Positions 2,767 through 18,208 of a stretch of 29,046 nt of DNA are shown here, piece after piece; the stretch's first letter is position 1, and each line of letters begins with the position of its first letter. The stretch covers positions 1 through 29,046 of the forward strand of contig JAGRNM010000001.1 in the NCBI GenBank assembly GCA_020440745.1, in the 5' to 3' direction. Below the pieces are notes generated by a model. The model had not been told where the DNA came from, did no database searches, and worked only from the letters and a program-made list of their open reading frames with translations. The DNA is from Deltaproteobacteria bacterium. GTDB taxonomy: Bacteria > UBA10199 > DSSB01. The position numbers and the translations under genes are program-made.

Positions 2767-4449
2767 ATGTCCGCTATTCTTAATCGTTATTCTCGTCGTA
2801 TTACCCAAGATCCCGATCAGCCAGCCAGCCAGGCCATGCTTTATGGGACAGGTCTGACTAAGGAAGATTTAGAAAAAGCCCAAGTGGGGATCGCCTCTAG
2901 TGGCTATGAGGGCAATACCTGCAATATGCATCTTAATGCTTTGGCGGCCTTGGTTAAGCAAAGCTGCCAAGAAGCTGGTTTGGTGGGTTTGGTTTTTAAT
3001 ACCATTGGGGTCAGTGATGGTATCTCTATGGGAACAGAGGGCATGAATTATTCTCTTCAATCGAGAGAAATCATTGCCGATAGTATCGAGACGGTGATGA
3101 GTGCCCAATGGTATGACGCTAATATTTCTATTATGGGCTGTGATAAGAATATGCCTGGGTCCTTGATCGCTATGGGCAGGCTTAACCGTCCTAGTATCAT
3201 GGTTTATGGAGGAACCATTAAGCCCGGTCATTTTAAGGATCAAAAGTTAGACATTGTCTCTGCCTTTGAAGGTTTGGGTGCTTGTGTGGCGGGTAAGATC
3301 ACGCAGGGTGACTTAGAAGGTATTTTAAAAAACGCCTGTCCCGGTGCAGGTGCTTGTGGCGGCATGTACACGGCCAATACTATGGCCAGTGCTATTGAGA
3401 CCTTAGGCATGAGCTTGCCTTATAGTTCTTCTTACCCCGCGGTGAGTGAGGAAAAAAAACAAGAATGTTTAAAAAAAGTAGGCCCAGCCATCCGTCATCT
3501 TTTGGAAAAAAATATAAAACCCAGAGACATTATGACGAGGGCGGCCTTTGAAAATGCCATGGTGGTGGTCATGGCCTTGGGGGGTTCTACTAATGCGGTT
3601 TTACACCTTATTGCTATGGCCAAAAGTGTGGATGTCCCCTTGACGATTGATGATTTTCAAAAAGTCAGTGACAGGGTGCCTTTTATAGCGGATCTCAAAC
3701 CCTCGGGCCAATATGTGATGGAGGATCTTTTTAAAGTGGGTGGGGTACCAGCGGTGCAAAAGTTATTATTAAAGGAAGGTCTTTTAGAGGGTTCTTGTCT
3801 TACCTGTACGGGCAAGACCTTGGAAGAAAACTTAAGCGACTTGCCAGGCTTGAACCAAGGGCAAGAGGTCATCAAGCCTCTTAGTCATCCTATCAAAAAA
3901 ACCGGTCACTTACAGATCCTTTATGGCAATGTGGCTCAGGGAGGTTCGGTGGCCAAGATTACGGGTAAGGAAGGAACCAAATTTACCGGTAAGGCTAGGG
4001 TCTTTGATGCAGAAGAAGAGGCGATTGAGGCCCTTAAAGCCAAAAAAATTCAAAAAGGTGATGTCCTAGTCATCCGTTACGAAGGTCCCAAGGGAGGACC
4101 TGGTATGAGTGAAATGCTTAAAGTAACGGCAGTAGTGATGGGTGAGGGCCTCGGTAAAGAGGTGGCTTTAATCACCGATGGTCGTTTTTCGGGGGGGACC
4201 CACGGCTTTGTGGTGGGTCATATTGTGCCAGAGGCCCAAGAAGGCGGTGTGATTGCTGTCATTGAAGAAGGGGACTCTTTGACCATTGACGCCGAAAAAC
4301 GGGAGATTAATCTCCATGTGGAAGAGTCTATCTTGGCGGAAAGATTAAGGAAATGGACGCCTCCTCCTTATAAGGCTACTCAAGGGACTCTTCGTAAGTT
4401 TATTAAGTGTGTCTCCAATGCCTCCGAAGGCTGTGTGACCGATCTTTAA
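2767..4449 (+). CDS. ilvD: Dihydroxy-acid dehydratase (IlvD/EDD family, short form)
   Basis: 560 aa. Fe-S ligand motifs [13 protein letters not shown] and [16 protein letters not shown] are present. N-terminal RRITQD...GIASS and C-terminal [19 protein letters not shown] blocks match IlvD. An AAGGAG RBS sits 6 nt upstream of the ATG. Confidence 0.88.
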
Positions 4450-4512
4450 GCCTTTTGTAATAAAGAATAGCAGAATAGAGTCTGCTAAAAAAATGTCTTA
4501 TTTTGTCTTATA

Positions 4513-4539
4513 TGTCGAAAAGTGTCTTAATTTTCGACA
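4513..4539. promoter_or_regulatory. Perfect 9-bp inverted repeat TGTCGAAAA-N9-TTTTCGACA immediately upstream of a -35-like hexamer
   Basis: Arms at 4513-4521 and 4531-4539, read from the sequence. No U-run follows, so it looks more like an operator or binding site than a terminator. Confidence 0.3.
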
Positions 4540-4544
4540 GTCCT

Positions 4545-4573
4545 TTGACAGGCTTAGTTTTTAAAGTTTAATA
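4545..4573 (+). promoter_or_regulatory. Sigma-70-like promoter, TTGACA-N17-TTAATA
   Basis: Consensus -35 TTGACA at 4545-4550. A 17-nt spacer separates it from the -10-like TTAATA at 4568-4573. It faces the long noncoding region. Confidence 0.3.
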
Positions 4574-4638
4574 CTTTGTTTTCTATAACTTATTAAAATT
4601 ATTAATTAATTTTTAAATTCGTCAAAAAAAATGACTTT

Positions 4639-4654
4639 TGGCACGCTTGGTGCA
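4639..4654 (+). promoter_or_regulatory. Sigma-54 (RpoN)-type -24/-12 promoter-like element, TGGCACG-N4-GTGCA
   Basis: Sequence ttTGGCACGcttgGTGCAct. The GG and GC dinucleotides have the exact canonical spacing of the TGGCACG-N4-TTGCW consensus. The only mismatch is at the first T of TTGC. The predicted TSS is near 4666, pointing at the heptamer array. Confidence 0.35.
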
Positions 4655-4800
4655 CTGAATAAAAGACAGATCACGGGTAGGATAGAAAAAAAAGGCTCTT
4701 TCAAAACTTAAAACTCAAACAAGGCAATCAGGGCCTTTTCACTAAGGGACCGCAAGAGAAAGTTAAGCAAGCTTAGCTTTTCTCAAAAAAATCCAAGGTC

Positions 4801-4995
4801 AGGTAAGCGCGGGTAAGCAAACGGGTAAGTCACTGGGTAGGAAAACTAGGTAACCGGGTAAGCAAGCGGGTAAGTAAAATGGGTAGGAAAACTAGGTAAC
4901 CGGGTAAGCAAGCGGGTAAGTAAAATGGGTAGGAGAAGTAGGTAAGTTTACTGGGTAAGTCACTAGGTAGCTGGGTAAGCACTCAACTGGGTAAA
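4801..4995. repeat. Array of about 17 GGGTAAG-like heptamers at roughly 11-12 bp spacing, including a 46-bp tandem duplication (4835-4880 and 4881-4926, plus a diverged partial third unit)
   Basis: Heptamers GGGTAAG, GGGTAGG, AGGTAAC and AGGTAAG start at about 4801, 4811, 4823, 4835, 4848, 4856, 4868, 4881, 4894, 4902, 4914, 4927, 4939, 4953, 4965, 4972 and 4989. The unit gggtaggaaaactaggtaaccgggtaagcaagcgggtaagtaaaat is repeated exactly twice in tandem. There is no ORF of 60 aa or more on either strand. Confidence 0.8.
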
Positions 4996-5087
4996 GAAAA
5001 TGCGGGCATTTGGGCAGCCCGCAGAAATGGGCTGCCAAGGATTTTACGATAACTCCTCTTTTATCATATTCCCTTTGGGCACTCCTT

Positions 5088-5118
5088 AAGCGACCTTATT
5101 TACGGTCGCTTTTTTTTT
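5088..5118 (+). terminator. Rho-independent terminator: 8-bp stem AAGCGACC/GGTCGCTT, 8-nt loop, then a 9-T run
   Basis: Read directly: aagcgacc ttatttac ggtcgctt ttttttttt. A weaker GGAGGGC-T7 element follows at about 5172-5187. Confidence 0.55.
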
Positions 5119-5219
5119 AATAAAGCCTAAAAGTATCAGGTTTCCCTCAAAAGCTCTCTGTTCCTCAAGGATGGAGGGCTTTTTTTATTGTCTCGCTTAA
5201 AAAAAATGTCTACAGGAAG

Positions 5220-5234
5220 AGCCCGAGTCGGGCT
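5220..5234. promoter_or_regulatory. Palindrome AGCCCGA-G-TCGGGCT in the promoter region of the epimerase gene
   Basis: Perfect 7-bp arms with a 1-nt centre, about 80 bp upstream of the 5317 start. Candidate dimeric regulator site. Confidence 0.25.
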
Positions 5235-5316
5235 TGTTTAAACATCTTGAGCTTATTTAAGACCATAATTACAGGTCCTTATTTGATTTTTTATTGTTTT
5301 TAATTTTGAGGTGGAC

Positions 5317-6225
5317 ATGAAGATTTTAGTGAGTGGTTCTAGTGGCTTAGTGGGATCTCATTTAGTTTCTCAATTAAAGGCTTCCGGTCATGAGATTGCT
5401 CGTTTGGTCCGTCATGCAGCGGATCGGGCGGTTGGCGAGATTTATTGGGAGCCCTCTCGGGGTTCTATTGATAAAGAGGCTTTGGAGGCTTTTGCTCCAG
5501 AGGCTGTCATTAATTTGGCGGGAGAAAATATTGCTTCTGGTCGTTGGACCGAGGCTAAGAAAAAAGAGATTCGGGATAGTCGAGTAGAAGGCACTAAGAT
5601 TTTGTCCAAGGCACTGGCTCATTTAAAGCTACGGCCTCAGGTTTTTATTAATGCTTCTGCTTTAGGTTATTATGGAGAACGAGGAGAAGAGTGGATGACC
5701 GAAACTTCAGAAGCTGGCCTTGGATTTTTACCAGAAGTCTGCCAAGCTTGGGAAGACGCCACTCAAGAAGCCAAGCAAGCCAAGATTCGTACTATTAATT
5801 TAAGGATTGGTATTGTCTTAAGCAAAGAAGGAGGAGCTTTAAAAAAAATGCTCACACCTTTTTGTCTGGGACTTGGTGGTGTGATGGGCAACGGTAGGCA
5901 GTTTATGAGTTGGATTGCCTTAGAGGATTTGATTCGTATCCTTCTGTTTGCTTTAGAAGAGAAGAAGCTAGAAGGCCCAGTCAATGCGGTCAGTCCCCAT
6001 CCGGTGACTAATAAGGTCTTTACCAAGACTTTGGGGAGAGTTCTTTTAAGGCCCACGATTTTTCCTATGCCTGCTTCTGTGGCTAGGATGATTTTTGGAG
6101 AAATGGCTGATGACTTGCTTTTGGCAAGTACTAGGGCCCGGCCAGAAAAATTAAAAGCGGTGGATTTTGAATTTAAGTATCCCCAATTAAAAGAAGCTCT
6201 TAAATCGATTTTGGGAAAAAAATAA
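5317..6225 (+). CDS. TIGR01777/YfcH-like NAD-dependent epimerase family protein (SDR fold with C-terminal DUF1731-like region)
   Basis: N-terminal Rossmann motif ILVSGSSGLVGSHL. The length and C-terminal region are typical of the YfcH family. The ORF track starts at GTG 5311. ATG 5317 with GAGG 5 nt upstream is the likelier start. Confidence 0.75.
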   Translation: MKILVSGSSGLVGSHLVSQLKASGHEIARLVRHAADRAVGEIYWEPSRGSIDKEALEAFAPEAVINLAGENIASGRWTEAKKKEIRDSRVEGTKILSKALAHLKLRPQVFINASALGYYGERGEEWMTETSEAGLGFLPEVCQAWEDATQEAKQAKIRTINLRIGIVLSKEGGALKKMLTPFCLGLGGVMGNGRQFMSWIALEDLIRILLFALEEKKLEGPVNAVSPHPVTNKVFTKTLGRVLLRPTIFPMPASVARMIFGEMADDLLLASTRARPEKLKAVDFEFKYPQLKEALKSILGKK

Positions 6226-6301: not shown

Positions 6302-7849
6302 ATGTCCCAACCCATCGTCAACTTAGAGGCTATTATTCAGGATCCCTATGATTTAGCCGTTGCTACAGCTCGTACTTGTTATTCGGCTAAGGGGATTATC
6401 AGAGTTCCTCAAGTTAGATCCACAGAAACAGCTAGGGTGCTTAGGGATAAGATTAGCCACTCTACTAGACAGGCCGGCCATTTAACTACTAGGCAACATG
6501 CTCACTTTGTTTTTTCTTTGGATAAGGTAAGTCGTAATTTTTTATGGTCCTTTTTACACTCCCATCCTTTTTATAATAGCGAGCAAGTCTCCCAGCGTTA
6601 TGTTAAAGTTCAGGCGGGCAACTACACGGTTCCTCCCTTAAAAGAAAAAGCCAAGACTATCTATGAGGCTTGTATCCATCGCCAGATGGAAACCTATGAG
6701 ACACTCAATCAAGTCCTCTATCCCCACGCTCAAGCTGAGTATTTAAAAGTCTTTCCTATCAGGTCAAAGCATTTAGACACCTATGCTAAAGTGATTCGCA
6801 AAAAATGTTTTGAGGTTTCTCGTTATGTTTTGCCGGTAGCCACCCATGCTTATCTGTATCACACTATTTAGGCTTTAACTTTGATGCGTTATTTTCGTTT
6901 GATGGATTATTTTGACACTCCGTGGGAACAACGTTTGGTAGTGAGTCAAATGGTGGATTTAGTTTGTGAAATAGACCCTGAGTTTAGACAAGAACTGACC
7001 GATCCTTATCCCTTAGAGGCAAGTCCTGAATATGCTTTTTTACAAAGTCAAAGACCTAATTTTTTGGCTAAGAAAGAAAGTCTAAAAGAATTTGATGAAT
7101 CTCTAAAAGGACGCCGAGCTCGTTTGATTGATTATAAGATTAATGCTCCTCAAACCTTAGCTTCAGCCGTGCGTTCGGTTTTGGGTTTAAGTGCTTCAGA
7201 AATAAGTGACGAAGCGGCGATTGCTAAAGTTTTAGACCCTCAGCAAAATTCCCAGCTGGGTGATACTTTAAATTTAAATACTCTTTCTAAGTGGGGGCGC
7301 ACTTTAATGCATCCCCATTATACTTTTAGAAAAAAAATCAGTCATACTGCTGACAGCCAAGACCAACGTCATCGGATGACTCCTGCTTCCCGTCCGGTTT
7401 TAAGCGCCCAATATAGCGGGCAGGCCGATTATATCGTGCCTAAATTAATTGAAGAAGTACCTGAGGCCGAAGAAATTTTTAAGGCTTCGATGAAAGAAAC
7501 TTTTGAGACTATTAATCAACTCTTAGAAATGGGAGTCGAAACTCAATTTGCTCTTTATTTGTTACCCAATGCTTTTCCCATTAGATTTGAAGAATCAGGT
7601 GACCTTTTAAATCTTCACCACAAATGGCATTCCCGCGCTTGCTACACGGCTCAAGAAGAAATCTTTTACGCCACGGTGGATGAGTTAGAAGAAGTCAAAG
7701 CGGTCCATCCCCAACTAGTTGAGCATATCTTGGCTCCTTGTTATTTAAGAAAAAGGGCAGGCATCCGTCCGATTTGTCCAGAAGGCGACCGTTTTTGTGG
7801 CGTCAAAGTTTGGGACAAGTCTTTAGAAGAGTATGAGCGCGTGATTTAG
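6302..7849 (+). CDS. thyX: ThyX-like flavin-dependent thymidylate synthase, long single-chain form, interrupted by an in-frame TAG at 6869-6871 (ORFs 6302-6871 and 6881-7849 are in the same frame)
   Basis: The N-terminal part carries the ThyX block ...HAHFVFSLDKVSRNFLWSFL...SEQVSQRY (SxRY motif). The downstream part carries RHR (QDQRHRMTPASRP) and the C-terminal ThyX block ALYLLPNAFPIRFEESGDLLNLHHKWHSRACYTAQEEI. Both parts are in frame 2, separated only by TAG plus 9 nt. Confidence 0.6.
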
Positions 7850-14816: not shown

Positions 14817-15665
14817 TTATTGTTTGACTAAAACCCACACGGTAGAAGTCCCTGGAGAAATAGCCATGCCTGCATTGTAGGCGTCTAAGGCTAAAAACTC
14901 TAAAGTAGTTCCAAAAGGAACAGTAATATAATTTTGTAGTCCTTGATCGGTAACAAAATCTTCATATAAAGAACCGATGACGCGACATTGGCTGGTATAC
15001 GCAAAACTAACGTTAGCAGACAGACCAGCGGTGCAAAGTAGCTTTAAAGTATCATTGACTTGTCTTTCTGCAGACCCAGGTAATTGAAAGGAAGAAACTA
15101 GATTAGAATTAGAAGTATTTTGAATAACCACTAAACCTTCTGATTGGGGAATAATGGGAGCAAGAATATTACTGTTGCTAGTGACGGTTGTTGCAACTGG
15201 CTGTCTTATACGATTAACAGTAATCAAATCAGTTGTATTTGTATTAGTCTGAATCGTATTAGCACTTAGACTATTACTGCTTACATGACCATCTACAGTC
15301 ACATCTCCAGTGGTATTAATAGTATCAGTAGAAAAATTTTCTGTATAAATGGTTCTAGAGGCTACTTCATCTAGGTTAGCAGTACCTGTTACGTTTAAGT
15401 CTTGTTCTATGGTAGCTCCACCATGAATTATAGCATCTCTTTGGACGGTTAACCTTCTGTCTGCATGGACGTTGTAGGCGTTTAAATCTCCATCGGCCAC
15501 CACATTACCTTCGGTTAAGACGTCGTTACCTACCAAAACATTGGCAGGAAAACTTTGGTCTAGATTAATAGTAAAGCTAGCCTGAGCAGAGCTTAAACCG
15601 ACTAAGCAAAATAGGGTGCTTAATAGGAGAGTTTGGAAGAGGAGTTTAGTTTTTTTATGTGTCAT
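14817..15665 (-). CDS. Secreted Thr/Ser/Asn-rich protein, paralog A of a local family; conserved C-terminal Cys-loop domain
   Basis: 282 aa. Signal peptide MTHKKTKLLFQTLLLSTLFCLVGLSSAQA. The central region has short degenerate repeats (LNVTGTANLD, INTTGDVTVDG). The C-terminal region LLCTAG...SQCRV...VPFGTTLEF aligns with the C-terminus of ORF B. Confidence 0.6.
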   Translation of the reverse strand: MTHKKTKLLFQTLLLSTLFCLVGLSSAQASFTINLDQSFPANVLVGNDVLTEGNVVADGDLNAYNVHADRRLTVQRDAIIHGGATIEQDLNVTGTANLDEVASRTIYTENFSTDTINTTGDVTVDGHVSSNSLSANTIQTNTNTTDLITVNRIRQPVATTVTSNSNILAPIIPQSEGLVVIQNTSNSNLVSSFQLPGSAERQVNDTLKLLCTAGLSANVSFAYTSQCRVIGSLYEDFVTDQGLQNYITVPFGTTLEFLALDAYNAGMAISPGTSTVWVLVKQ

Positions 15666-15921
15666 AGCCGTTTCCTTTCTGATTTACTTGAAAGAACAAC
15701 AACAATGACGCATCGCTAGGTTAGGGTATGAGTGTTGAATGGGGGCAGAGGAAAGACCCAAGCTTACTTGATTGTAAGCTCTTTGCAGTAGAATGATTGG
15801 AGTGCCTCTTGTTTCCATTGTTGGTAACCCTGCTCTCCCTCTTTTAAGATTTAATAAAAGTAAAAACTTAAAAAGGGAGCAGTAGCTTTGCGTCCCCGAG
15901 TTACCTCGGGTTTGCCTTTGT
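15663..15921 (-). promoter_or_regulatory. Conserved 5' leader/promoter module, copy A
   Basis: Boxes shared with copies B and C, read in minus-strand sense. The hairpin box is AGACAAAGGCAAACCCGAG-GUAA-CUCGGGGACGCAAAGCUACUG, with plus-strand coordinates 15895-15910 for the stem-loop. The other boxes are AGCAGGGTTACC, TGCGTCATTGTTGTTG and GAAAGGAAACGGCT-ATG. Confidence 0.5.
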
Positions 15922-16073
15922 CTTAATGGATTATTTTTAAGAGAGTGTGTCTCTTGTTTAAGAGATCTTGTAAGGGATTTTAAAAAGCGCTGTCTAGTTT
16001 TTTTTATATTTTGTTTAAAAAAAATTCATTATTTTTTGATGCATTGCATCTATTTCTTGTGACTTATTGCATT

Positions 16074-16134: not shown

Positions 16135-16827
16135 TTATCTAATTTGGAACCACTTGCCTAACATTCTTTTAAACTCAGTGGTACGACCAAAGTAGACCAT
16201 GGTGCTACTTACTTGGCTTCCATATTTATTAACGAGTGTGTCAAGGTTGTATCCAAAGCTAGTTGCTGGGGCAACGCTACAGTTTGGATAGTTGGTGTAA
16301 TATTGGACAATAATATCAGGTGCCCAACAGGTGAGGGTGACGATGGTTCCGTCTTCAACATTACTAGGTAAACGGAAAGTAGCTGTGGCTCCTGGGCTGA
16401 CACTCGCTCTCATGATCACGTGTCCTAGTTCGGTGATATTAGCATCACTATAGCTGGTGACGTTTTTATAAGGTTCAACTAGTTCACCTCGTTTTAATTT
16501 ACTTAAGTCAGCGCTTCCCGTGATAGTCGCTTGTTCAGCTACTAAAGAAACGAAGTTAGAGTTAGTTCCTGTGACTTCATTTAGGATACTAAGATTACCG
16601 ACTTCCATATCGGAAGCGATTACTTCCACACCATCTCCCCCTAGGACTAAGGTCTCACTTCCTGTAGTCCCTCCAGAGTCTATTCCTTCACTGTCGCCAG
16701 AAAGAGAAATTTGCTCGGTGGTTTTTCCTGCGTCAATGCTTTCTGCTCGGAGACTAAACGGGATGCTTAAGGCAAGCAGGAAGATTAAGGTTAAGGAACG
16801 ATGGAGTGTTTTATATTTTTGTATCAT
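16135..16827 (-). CDS. Secreted Thr/Ser/Gly-rich protein, paralog B (231 aa from Met MIQKYKTL...)
   Basis: The ORF track extends to 16956. The Met at 16827 sits directly after the conserved GAAAGGAAACGGCT RBS box and begins a signal peptide (MIQKYKTLHRSLTLIFLLALSIPFSLRAES). The C-terminal TLTCWAP...PNCSV...VYFGRTTEF aligns with paralog A. Confidence 0.6.
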   Translation of the reverse strand: MIQKYKTLHRSLTLIFLLALSIPFSLRAESIDAGKTTEQISLSGDSEGIDSGGTTGSETLVLGGDGVEVIASDMEVGNLSILNEVTGTNSNFVSLVAEQATITGSADLSKLKRGELVEPYKNVTSYSDANITELGHVIMRASVSPGATATFRLPSNVEDGTIVTLTCWAPDIIVQYYTNYPNCSVAPATSFGYNLDTLVNKYGSQVSSTMVYFGRTTEFKRMLGKWFQIR

Positions 16828-17010
16828 AGCCGTTTCCTTTCCAATGTGGTTTTGAAAAGACAAACAACAATGACGCATGACTGGGGTTAGAAAAATAATT
16901 TTTCCTTTAGGTAACCCTGCTATCCTAGTCTTTGTTTTTTGATTTCTCTTTAACAAAAACTAGGACCAGTAGCTTTGCGTCCCCGAGTTGCCTCGGGTTT
17001 GCCTTTGTCT
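16825..17010 (-). promoter_or_regulatory. Conserved 5' leader/promoter module, copy B (the shortest copy)
   Basis: It has the same ordered boxes as copies A and C. The hairpin is at 16982-16997. In minus-strand sense its loop is GCAA, where A and C have GUAA. Both are GNRA tetraloops. Confidence 0.5.
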
Positions 17011-17082
17011 AGGTTAATAGATGAACTTACAAAGATCGTCTTATTTCACTTGATTTCATTTTAAGAGATAAATACTTGCAAT

Positions 17083-17524: not shown

Positions 17525-17635
17525 ATTAAGCCCAGCGAAGTTCTTGCATATAACCATCTAAGTCATTTTGGTTCTTGAAGAACTCAATGCTGTCGGATTT
17601 TTTAAAGAGGTTTTTGATTGCGTTTAGTTTAGTCA
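17525..17635 (-). CDS. 36-codon ORF (MTKLNAIKNLFKKSDSIEFFKNQNDLDGYMQELRWA) directly behind leader module C
   Basis: Its ATG sits in the same position relative to GAAAGGAAACGGCT as the starts of paralogs A and B. It ends at TAA 17525-17527. It has no signal peptide and is below the ORF-track cutoff. Confidence 0.3.
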
Positions 17636-17877
17636 TAGCCGTTTCCTTTCCAATTGGGTTTTGAAAAAGACAACAACAATGACGCTTAGCTTTTACTTAA
17701 GAAGAGGACTCTCTAAGGGAGAGGGAATTTTTTAGATTCCAAGTCGGAGGTTTTTTAAGACTTCGACTTCCATCTTAGGTAACCCTGCTATCCTAGTCTT
17801 TGTTTTTTGATTTCTCTCTAACAAAAGCTAGGACCAGTAGCTTTGCGTCCCCGAGTTACCTCGGGTTTGCCTTTGTC
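17633..17877 (-). promoter_or_regulatory. Conserved 5' leader/promoter module, copy C (carries an extra insert of about 90 nt relative to B)
   Basis: The boxes are near-identical to those of B: 17781-17877 matches 16909-17008 at almost every base. The hairpin is at 17849-17864 with loop GUAA in minus sense. Confidence 0.5.
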
Positions 17878-18208
17878 TAATGGATTGTCAATTTTAGCTT
17901 TTAACGAAGTTTTAGGTTTTTAAGAACCCTAGCGTTTTTTCGTTATCAACTAAAAAAAATTTTAAGAGTTAAAACTAAGAACTGTCAAATTTTTTTTTAA
18001 ATAAGTTTAATAAAAACGCTAGCATAAAAACGTACAGATCTAACAATTGCCTTATTTGGCGCGGGTTTTAAAAGAATTATTTTTTTAAAAAAATTATTAA
18101 TTTTTTATCTTTTTAAAGTCTGTAAAAGTTTGAAAGTGAAAAAAAGGGCTTGTTGATTTTAAAATTAATGAAGCTTTTTGATTTTTAATTGGCTTTAAAA
18201 GATTGTTC

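What the first reader, a model, noticed from the sequence alone, without database searches (positions are those of the whole stretch)
4639..5118. Sigma-54-like promoter, then about 17 helically phased GGGTAAG heptamers with a 46-bp tandem duplication, then a strong terminator: candidate repeat-rich ncRNA or protein-binding array
The 860-bp gap between ilvD and the epimerase gene has no ORF of 60 aa or more. A near-consensus -24/-12 element (TGGCACG-N4-GTGCA, 4639-4654) points into an array of GGGTAAG, GGGTAGG and AGGTAAC heptamers spaced about 11-12 bp apart (4801-4995). That spacing is one helical turn, so every copy falls on the same face of the DNA. A 46-bp unit is duplicated exactly (4835-4880 and 4881-4926). 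The array is followed by two overlapping, mutually exclusive GC-rich hairpins (5002-5036) and a textbook intrinsic terminator (5088-5118). Two readings fit. The first is a roughly 450-nt sigma-54-dependent RNA carrying about 17 copies of a short motif. Repeat-bearing sRNAs of the CsrB/RsmZ family work as protein sponges, though their GGA motifs differ from the motif here. The second is a DNA-level array of iteron-like sites for a DNA-binding protein, similar to replication iterons or tandem response-regulator sites. Neither resembles any element I recognise. The heptamer also resembles the eukaryotic 5' splice-site consensus AGGTAAGT. I take that to be coincidental.
Basis: partly seen in the sequence, partly recalled or inferred. 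Interest (0 to 1): 0.8.

Follow-up and report, generated by a model that had tools for sequence, protein, structure and literature searches.

The report
Sigma-54-driven repeat-rich candidate small RNA
The gap after ilvD in an uncultured deltaproteobacterial genome looks like a stand-alone sigma-54-controlled non-coding RNA gene with 17 copies of a GGGUAAG-like word in its middle; it matches no known RNA family, and only its promoter could be shown to be conserved.

Summary
The sequence features are real. There is a one-mismatch sigma-54 promoter at 4639-4654 and 17 same-strand heptamers with an invariant GGTA core at 4801-4996. A 46-bp block is duplicated exactly, a folded 3' domain follows, and a strong intrinsic terminator sits at 5088-5118. 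No credible ORF is present.

One claim fails. The heptamers are 8-16 bp apart, with a best period of 11.75 bp and no coherence at 10.5 bp, so they do not share a DNA face.

The closest relative found (ilvD 89% identical) has a perfect sigma-54 promoter at the same place after ilvD, with similar upstream TGTC/GACA half-sites. Its contig ends 86 nt later, so the array could not be checked there. More distant relatives carry RNase P RNA after ilvD instead.

Heptamer cores vary far less than spacers (Fisher 2e-7). The array is purine-rich and predicted to be unstructured. Rfam, plasmid and phage BLAST, and pattern scans of genomes, metagenomes and viral contigs found no homologue.

Best reading (about 0.4): a sigma-54-dependent RNA of about 450 nt that acts as a multi-site decoy for an unknown single-strand RNA-binding protein. 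This follows CrcZ/CsrB logic but is not a member of either family. A neutral minisatellite, a base-pairing RNA or a DNA site array remain possible.

The parts
4494..4551 (.). Candidate upstream activator (bEBP) binding region. Six TGTC-type half-sites about 10 bp apart: TGTCTTA at 4494, 4504 and 4523, TGTCGAA at 4513, and inverted TTCGACA at 4534 and TTTGACA at 4545. They lie about 90-150 bp upstream of the promoter.
   Evidence: Read from the sequence. TGTCTTA...TTCGACA recurs upstream of the orthologous promoter in L245. Function is inferred.
4552..4638 (.). Very AT-rich spacer (21-25% GC) between the half-sites and the promoter. It could be a bend or IHF region.
   Evidence: Composition profile. 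Also AT-rich in L245. Inferred.
4639..4654 (+). Sigma-54 (-24/-12) promoter TGGCACGCTTGGTGCA. The predicted start is near 4665.
   Evidence: Only one-mismatch match in the window. L245 has a perfect TGGCACTACTTTTGCT 159 nt after its ilvD stop, against 190 nt here. It is the only such site in about 90 kb of relatives' loci.
4665..4800 (+). 5' leader with two predicted hairpins (about 4690-4739 and 4756-4785) and a boxA-like GCTCTTTCAAAAC at 4694-4706.
   Evidence: Fold z = -1.26. No sequence similarity to L245 downstream of the promoter.
4801..5001 (+). Array of 17 heptamers. The extended consensus is A-N-Y-R-GGUA-R-S, and spacers are 1-9 nt. The array is 70% purine and predicted to be unstructured.
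   Evidence: Fold z = +0.58. Cores versus spacers deviate at 10/91 against 27/52 cells, Fisher 2e-7, after removing the duplicated block.
4835..4926 (+). Two identical 46-bp higher-order units, each made of four heptamer units. Diverged copies flank them at 4789-4834 and 4927-4972.
5002..5087 (+). Structured 3' domain. It holds the GC hairpin 5001-5023, which overlaps an alternative GGCAGCC/GGCTGCC hairpin, and a longer imperfect stem at 5029-5085.
   Evidence: Fold of 4996-5125, z = -3.59, 0 of 200 shuffles as stable.
5088..5119 (+). Intrinsic terminator: 8-bp stem with 5 GC pairs, 8-nt loop, T9 tail.
   Evidence: Weak Rfam hits here are terminator-only resemblances.
5149..5190 (+). Second terminator-like hairpin with a T-run, between the candidate RNA gene and the epimerase gene.

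Best explanation
The gap holds an independent gene for a non-coding RNA of about 450 nt.

Proposed mechanism:
1. An enhancer-binding protein bound at the TGTC/GACA half-sites (4494-4551) activates the sigma-54 promoter at 4639-4654.
2. Transcription starts near 4665 and stops at the terminator at 5088-5119.
3. The middle of the RNA is a purine-rich, largely single-stranded tract with at least 17 copies of YRGGUAAG.
4. That tract works as a multivalent decoy that titrates a sequence-specific single-strand RNA-binding protein away from its mRNA targets. This is the logic of CrcZ (sigma-54/CbrB-driven, sequesters Hfq/Crc) and of CsrB/RsmZ.
5. The structured 3' domain and U-tail give stability.
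6. Copy number has grown by tandem duplication of a 46-nt four-motif block.

Shown: the promoter, its conservation, the array and its core-specific constraint, the terminator, and the absence of an ORF or known family.

Inferred: transcription itself, the activator sites, and protein sequestration. The partner protein is unknown.
For: - Sigma-54 promoter: unique in the window at this quality.
- A perfect counterpart sits at the same place and orientation after ilvD in the nearest relative L245 (89% ilvD identity). No other such site occurs in about 90 kb of relatives' loci.
- The TGTCTTA/TTCGACA half-sites and the AT-rich spacer are shared upstream.
- A strong terminator lies 450 nt downstream on the same strand, and a second one follows.
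- No ORF exceeds 50 aa, and the 46-bp period is not a multiple of three.
- All 17 motifs are on the transcribed strand. GGTA is invariant in 17 of 17 copies, while spacers vary in sequence and in length (1-9 nt). Fisher 2e-7 after de-duplication.
- The array is 70% purine with G-poor spacers, and it folds no better than shuffles (z = +0.58), as expected for an accessible single strand. The flanking 3' domain is strongly structured (z = -3.6).
- Precedents: CrcZ/CrcY carry several A-rich motifs, bind Hfq/Crc and are induced by CbrB (PMC5113210). NrsZ is RpoN-dependent, built of repeated modules, and the module number differs between species (PMC4253122).
Against: - There is no expression data.
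- The array could not be seen in any other genome. The only relative that shares the promoter is cut 86 nt downstream, and its transcribed stretch shows no similarity to the window.
- The exact 46-bp duplication shows recent slippage, so part of the copy number may be neutral.
- The motifs are not preferentially in loops.
- No RNA-binding protein, rpoN or enhancer-binding protein gene lies in the window.
- No protein is known to bind GGGUAAG.
Confidence: 0.4

Rival explanations
1. The sigma-54 transcript is real, but the array is a neutral minisatellite. A 12-13-nt unit expanded by slippage inside a non-coding RNA or leader whose function lies elsewhere, or which has no function beyond the promoter's.
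For: There is an exact 46-bp tandem duplication and a hierarchical 12/46-bp repeat structure. No array was found in any other sequence. The leader is not conserved in L245. More distant relatives have a different gene (rnpB) at this position, so the locus is evolutionarily young.
Against: Neutral decay should hit all unit positions equally. Instead GGTA is invariant in 17 of 17 copies, while spacers differ in sequence and by indels. All copies lie between a conserved promoter and a terminator.
Confidence: 0.22
2. The RNA acts by base pairing. The repeated GGGUAAG words pair with CUUACC(C) in one or more target RNAs, either as a sponge for a small RNA or as a multi-seed regulator like the repeated modules of NrsZ.
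For: It shares the promoter, terminator and array evidence of the best explanation. NrsZ shows that RpoN-dependent RNAs can carry repeated identical seed modules.
Against: Seven-nucleotide seeds with variable flanks are short. No CTTACCC enrichment occurs elsewhere in the window. Known multi-seed RNAs present their seeds in hairpin loops, which is not the case here.
Confidence: 0.13
3. The array works at the DNA level. It is a set of direct-repeat sites for a DNA-binding protein, for example a response regulator or an iteron- or centromere-binding protein. The half-site resembles the CpxR GTAAA-N5-GTAAA box (recalled from memory, not tested).
For: There are 17 direct repeats with a conserved 7-bp core. 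Perfect GGGTAAG-containing tandem repeats that look like iterons exist in viral contigs (L255, L258).
Against: Spacing is irregular (8-16 bp) with no 10.5-bp phase (R = 0.03). No rep, par or regulator gene is adjacent, and the contig carries housekeeping genes. The array lies about 135 bp downstream of the predicted start (about 150 bp from the promoter) and is separated from the next gene by two terminators. There is no similarity to plasmids or phages. The strand-specific purine bias is unexplained by a DNA role.
Confidence: 0.1
4. The array is the protein-binding part of a long regulated leader (attenuator) of the epimerase-thyX operon. It would work like TRAP or HutP sites that control a downstream terminator.
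For: Mutually exclusive hairpins at 5001-5036 lie between the array and the terminators. The downstream genes are on the same strand.
Against: No upstream segment is complementary to either arm of the 5088 terminator, so there is no antiterminator (sequence inspection). Two successive terminators are present. The epimerase-thyX-CitMHS block is conserved in relatives without this leader.
Confidence: 0.08
5. It is a type III toxin-antitoxin RNA antitoxin: a ToxI-like tandem repeat array with a promoter and terminator.
For: The layout is promoter, then a tandem repeat of about 46 nt in 3.1 copies, then a terminator. The repeat unit size is near that of known antitoxins (PMC3401426).
Against: No toxin ORF follows. 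The next gene is a conserved TIGR01777 NAD-dependent epimerase, and no ORF of 40 aa or more lies between 5120 and 5310. The repeats are composite and imperfect rather than precise units.
Confidence: 0.02

Closest known systems
CrcZ/CrcY/CrcX of Pseudomonas (Hfq/Crc-sequestering RNAs)
   Same: An intergenic RNA of a few hundred nt, driven by a sigma-54 promoter with an upstream enhancer-binding protein (CbrB). It carries several copies of a short single-stranded purine-rich motif and ends in an intrinsic terminator. It works as a protein decoy (PMC5113210).
   Different: The CrcZ motif is AAnAAnAA. Here it is YRGGUAAG, and apart from an A8 run no AAnAAnAA is present. There are 17 copies rather than about 6. 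Rfam gives no hit. The lineage is unrelated and the partner is unknown.
CsrB/RsmX/Y/Z family (CsrA/RsmA sponges)
   Same: Many copies of one short G-rich motif in one RNA, with copy number varying through internal duplication. The consensus context (A at -4, R at -1, GG core) loosely recalls the CsrA SELEX site (from memory).
   Different: The defining GGA in hairpin loops is absent. The whole RNA has only 6 GGA and 2 A-N-GGA, and the motifs are not in loops. No Rfam match. Csr/Rsm RNAs are normally driven by sigma-70 with GacA/UvrY, not by sigma-54.
NrsZ of Pseudomonas
   Same: RpoN-dependent and intergenic. It is built of repeated similar modules whose number (1-6) differs between species (PMC4253122).
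   Different: NrsZ modules are stem-loops of about 60 nt that expose an ACAGGCAG seed, are processed, and act by base pairing. Here the units are 8-16 nt and unstructured.
TRAP-binding (G/U)AG repeat arrays and HutP UAG repeats in Bacillus leaders (from memory)
   Same: Regularly spaced short single-stranded RNA words that are read by an oligomeric RNA-binding protein.
   Different: Those are 3-nt words spaced 2-4 nt apart in mRNA leaders that control a terminator. Here the words are 7 nt spaced about 12 nt apart in what looks like a stand-alone RNA.
ToxI-type antitoxin arrays and plasmid iterons/centromere repeats
   Same: A tandem direct-repeat array between a promoter and a terminator (ToxI), or direct repeats with a conserved core (iterons).
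   Different: There is no toxin, rep or par gene. The repeats are irregular and not in helical phase.

Membership tests
CsrB/RsmZ-type CsrA sponges | Multiple A(N)GGA motifs, mostly in hairpin loops | tested here: not met
   6 GGA and 2 A-N-GGA in 454 nt. The array motifs are no more unpaired than the spacers.
CsrB/RsmZ-type CsrA sponges | Match to the Rfam covariance models of the family | tested here: not met
   No hit at gathering threshold or at E-value up to 10.
CsrB/RsmZ-type CsrA sponges | CsrA/RsmA encoded in the genome | not testable with these tools
   Only this 29-kb contig is available, and it has no csrA.
CrcZ family | Sigma-54 promoter with an upstream activator site | tested here: met
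   Promoter at 4639-4654, conserved in L245, with shared upstream half-sites. Activator binding is inferred.
CrcZ family | Several AAnAAnAA motifs that bind Hfq | tested here: not met
   Only one A8 run at 4686.
CrcZ family | Sequence or structure homology (Rfam model) | tested here: not met
Type III TA antitoxin (ToxI-like) | Tandem repeat array directly followed by an endoribonuclease toxin gene | tested here: not met
   The next gene is a TIGR01777 epimerase, and there is no intervening ORF.
Iterons / response-regulator or centromere site arrays | Direct repeats in helical register (about 10.5 or 21 bp), or contiguous units of fixed length | tested here: not met
   Spacings are 8-16 bp, R = 0.03 at 10.5 bp, best period 11.75 bp.
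Iterons / response-regulator or centromere site arrays | Adjacent rep, par or cognate regulator gene | tested here: not met
   Neighbours are ilvD, a desaturase, an epimerase and thyX.
Sigma-54-dependent transcription unit | GG-N10-GC promoter close to TGGCAC-N5-TTGCW | tested here: met
   One mismatch here, zero in L245.
Sigma-54-dependent transcription unit | rpoN and an enhancer-binding protein in the genome; rpoN-dependent transcript | not testable with these tools
   Neither gene is in the window, and there is no expression data.
Intrinsic terminator | GC-rich hairpin followed by a U-run | tested here: met
   5088-5111 plus T9.

The most novel reading that the evidence does not exclude
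This is the sponge RNA of a so far unknown global post-transcriptional regulator in an uncultured deltaproteobacterial lineage. A sigma-54-gated RNA would present 17 or more single-stranded GGGUAAG sites to an RNA-binding protein that is neither CsrA nor Hfq/Crc, for example one of the small bacterial RRM or KH proteins. That would define a new decoy-RNA/regulator pair with a new recognition code.
Probability: 0.2. Interest if true: 0.7.

Novelty: new variant of a known kind. Interest (0 to 1): 0.45.

Why it matters
Protein-sequestering RNAs (CsrB/RsmZ, CrcZ, 6S, GlmY) are few, and each has revealed a global regulatory circuit. A new repeat-bearing RNA under sigma-54 control, with a motif unlike GGA or AAnAAnAA, would point to an undescribed RNA-binding regulator in a poorly known group of bacteria.

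The 17-fold repeated word also gives an immediate handle for finding that regulator, by pull-down or by searching for the motif in 5' UTRs. If the array is only a minisatellite, the locus still documents a conserved orphan sigma-54 promoter that has replaced the ilvD-rnpB linkage seen in related lineages.

Tried and rejected
1. Rfam at gathering threshold on the whole window and at E up to 10 on 4440-5320. Only terminator-shaped weak hits appeared.
2. Heptamer-triplet pattern scan of genome contigs. All inspected were microsatellites or coding repeats. The one Bdellovibrionales hit (L097) is a lipoprotein signal peptide.
3. Refined pattern scan (Y-flanked heptamers) of metagenome contigs. They were eukaryote-like minisatellites and simple repeats.
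4. The same pattern on viral contigs gave 4 unrelated perfect tandem repeats.
5. Synteny from the epimerase side. The nearest homologue is 64% identical. The epimerase-thyX-CitMHS block is kept, but other genes lie upstream and there is no array.
6. Synteny from the ilvD side. Only L245 (89%) shares the promoter, and it is truncated. L246, L251, L252, L253 and L254 have rnpB there, L249 has a HAD hydrolase, and L250 ends 95 nt after ilvD.
7. BLAST of 4630-5125 against plasmids and phages gave nothing.
8. Literature search for GGGUAAG and for sigma-54 sponge RNAs found nothing relevant beyond CrcZ and NrsZ.
9. Coding potential. The only ORFs are repeat-derived minus-strand peptides and ORFs of 36 aa or fewer on the plus strand.
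10. Heptamers in loops: no.
11. A search for the motif at ribosome-binding sites of window genes found only the desaturase gene using AGGTAA as its Shine-Dalgarno.
12. Considered and set aside as untestable or weak:
   - RNA G-quadruplexes: 12 GGG tracts, but with 9-10-nt loops.
   - Mimicry of 23S rRNA H71 (GGGUAAGU).
   - Pairing with 16S CCUUACC.
   - GUA-codon or tRNA-Val anticodon pairing linked to ilvD.
   - Rho loading site on the minus-strand transcript.

Full report
**Context.** The window is a complete 29,046-bp contig of an NCBI MAG labelled 'Deltaproteobacteria bacterium' (names attached to P0001 and P0121), with 40.6% GC. The finding lies in the 860-bp gap between ilvD (2767-4449, Pfam ILVD_EDD) and a TIGR01777-type NAD-dependent epimerase (start about 5318). 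A thyX gene and a CitMHS_2 transporter follow. The rest of the contig carries housekeeping genes. It has no rpoN, no enhancer-binding protein, no obvious RNA-binding protein, and no replication, partition or toxin gene.

**The observation.**
- Promoter: TGGCACGCTTGGTGCA at 4639-4654 has the GG-N10-GC geometry and one mismatch to TGGCAC-N5-TTGCW. All other matches in the window need two mismatches, and two-mismatch matches occur at chance frequency.
- Array: from 4801 to 4996 there are 17 same-strand heptamers with an invariant GGTA core. Sixteen fit RGGTARS within 200 bp, against a background of 0.56 per kb per strand.
- Exact GGGTAAG occurs 13 times in the window against 3.6 expected.
- Duplication: 4835-4880 equals 4881-4926 exactly. 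TRF describes a 46-bp unit in 3.1 copies at 92% identity, over a weaker 12-bp period.
- Terminators: an 8-bp GC-rich hairpin with a T9 tail sits at 5088-5119, and a second terminator-like site at 5149-5190.
- Coding: no ORF over 50 aa exists on either strand. The longest are minus-strand repeat peptides, and the 46-bp period is not a multiple of three.

The one part of the description that fails is the helical phasing. Spacings run from 8 to 16 bp. The best-fitting period is 11.75 bp (R = 0.67), and at 10.5 bp the sites are spread evenly round the helix (R = 0.03).

**Anatomy of the putative transcript.**
- The 5' leader (4665-4800) has two modest hairpins (z = -1.26).
- The array (4795-5001) is 70% purine with G-poor spacers. 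It folds no better than shuffled sequence (z = +0.58).
- The 3' segment 4996-5125 is strongly structured (z = -3.59, 0 of 200 shuffles as stable) and ends in the terminator.
- The whole 455 nt shows no global folding signal on either strand.
- Heptamer cores are no more unpaired than spacers (0.52 against 0.52).

So this is a single-stranded motif tract between structured ends, not a CsrB-like bouquet of loops.

**Is the motif constrained?** Anchoring the 17 units on GGTA gives the consensus A(-4) N Y R G G T A R S. The following four columns are nearly random, and spacer lengths run from 1 to 9 nt. After removing the four units of the exact duplicate, heptamer columns deviate from consensus in 10 of 91 cells and the next four columns in 27 of 52 (Fisher 2e-7). 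The units are related by duplication, so this is not a clean test. Even so, the pattern is what selection on the heptamer predicts, not what uniform decay of a minisatellite predicts.

**Comparative evidence.**
- From the epimerase side, the nearest homologue is only 64% identical. Those relatives keep the epimerase-thyX-CitMHS block but have other genes upstream and no array.
- From the ilvD side there is one closer relative: P0122, 89% identical, on a 4,027-bp Logan contig (L245).
- In L245, 159 nt after the ilvD stop (190 nt in the window) and in the same orientation, sits a perfect TGGCACTACTTTTGCT. It is preceded by an AT-rich stretch and by TGTCTTA...TTCGACA.
- The window has six such TGTC-type half-sites about 10 bp apart at 4494-4551.
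- A regular-expression scan of about 90 kb (both strands) of all relatives' loci finds this as the only sigma-54-like site.

I take this as good evidence that the promoter is functional, and as a hint that the half-sites are the activator's binding sites.

L245 ends 86 nt after the promoter. That stretch shows no similarity to the window above shuffled controls, so neither the leader nor the array can be compared. The contig might end there because repeats break a k-mer assembly, but that is speculation.

ilvD relatives at 77-85% identity carry RNase P RNA next to ilvD instead (L246 by Rfam; L252, L251, L253 and L254 by sequence). L249 has a HAD hydrolase there. The locus is therefore young.

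**Searches for the element elsewhere.**
- Rfam finds nothing in the gap at gathering thresholds. At permissive E-values it finds only terminator-shaped resemblances.
- BLAST against plasmids and phages finds nothing.
- Pattern scans for three consecutive heptamers in genome, metagenome and viral collections returned only microsatellites, coding repeats, eukaryote-like minisatellites and a few perfect iteron-like repeats.

**Interpretation.** The most coherent reading of a conserved sigma-54 promoter, a strand-specific unstructured motif tract, a folded 3' end, a strong terminator and no ORF is a stand-alone sigma-54-dependent non-coding RNA of about 450 nt.

The closest working analogues are these:
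- CrcZ/CrcY are induced by the enhancer-binding protein CbrB, carry several A-rich motifs and titrate Hfq/Crc (PMC5113210).
- CsrB/RsmZ are motif-rich CsrA sponges.
- NrsZ is RpoN-dependent and built of repeated modules whose number changes between species (PMC4253122).

I therefore favour a multivalent decoy for a single-strand RNA-binding protein, at a confidence of about 0.4. The RNA is not a member of any of those families:
- GGA motifs are few and not in loops.
- AAnAAnAA is absent apart from one A8 run.
- There is no model match.

The partner is unknown. RRM or KH proteins are candidates only by analogy.

**Rivals.**
- Neutral minisatellite inside a real sigma-54 transcript (0.22). The exact duplication and the lack of any second example favour it. 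The core-specific conservation argues against it.
- Base-pairing RNA with repeated seeds (0.13).
- DNA-level site array (0.10). It is weakened by the lack of helical phase, the position downstream of the promoter and behind two terminators, the housekeeping context and the strand-specific purine bias.
- Protein-controlled leader of the epimerase operon (0.08). No antiterminator pairing is visible, and the operon exists without this leader in relatives.
- ToxI-like antitoxin (0.02). There is no toxin gene.

**Verdict.** The feature is real and well delimited. It has a conserved sigma-54 promoter and belongs to no described family. Transcription, conservation of the array and a binding partner are all untested, and the only informative relative is truncated. 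It is a worthwhile candidate for a new decoy-type RNA, but it is not established as one.

Noticed in passing
window 15819-15925, 16906-17012, 17774-17880 (all minus strand): Three c-di-GMP-I-GGC riboswitch aptamers (63-69 bits, above the gathering score) lie about 0.9-1.1 kb apart. The first two precede secreted-looking proteins without Pfam domains (14817-15665 and about 16135-16830). Those two proteins are not detectably similar to each other (E = 2). The third precedes only small ORFs, for example a 36-aa ORF at 17526-17636.
   Followed up: partly
window 6302-7849: thyX is split by an in-frame TAG at 6869-6871 into 189-aa and 322-aa ORFs. Relatives encode a single 517-520-aa two-domain ThyX. 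This could be a pseudogene, a sequencing error or a read-through.
   Followed up: partly
L246 2172-2659, L252 about 7375-7700, L253 about 1450-1900, L254 about 1060-1520, L251 end: In ilvD relatives at 77-85% identity, the RNase P RNA gene lies immediately downstream of ilvD, on the minus strand in four and the plus strand in L254. The window and L245 lack it there, and the window has no rnpB at all.
   Followed up: partly
window 4694-4706: GCTCTTTCAAAAC in the 5' leader of the candidate RNA resembles the boxA antitermination element (GCUCUUUAACAA, from memory; 10 of 12). It could protect an untranslated RNA from Rho, or it could be chance.
   Followed up: no
window 5149-5190 and 5220-5234: A second terminator-like hairpin with a T-run and a further short GC palindrome (AGCCCGAGTCGGGCT) lie between the candidate RNA and the epimerase gene. 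It is unclear what they terminate.
   Followed up: no
window 4468-4487: The hairpin TAGCAGA-N6-TCTGCTA just after ilvD is followed by an A-run on the plus strand and scores as a terminator only for the minus strand. ilvD has no obvious plus-strand intrinsic terminator, so read-through into the sigma-54 region is possible.
   Followed up: no
L255 (IMG/VR UViG_3300045131_002933), reverse-complement coordinates about 4895-4965; L258 about 5125-5225: There are perfect tandem repeats (TTGTCGGGTAAG) x5.5 and (CGACTGCGGGTAAG) x7 in AT-rich intergenic DNA of viral contigs. They look like iterons and are unrelated to the window's array.
   Followed up: no
L141 (metagenome contig WNFM01238552.1) 389-480: An 11-bp repeat (GGGTAAGYATT) in about 8 copies lies about 40 bp upstream of an apparent coding region in a prokaryote-like contig. 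It is the only prokaryote-like, non-coding GGGTAAG array seen besides the window's. It is a plain tandem repeat with no sigma-54 site noted.
   Followed up: no
L123 2662-3027: A relative that shares the epimerase-thyX-CitMHS block encodes a 121-aa RRM_1 protein about 1 kb upstream of the epimerase gene, with one gene (LssY_C) between them. Small RRM proteins exist in this group and are one conceivable class of partner for a single-stranded motif RNA.
   Followed up: no
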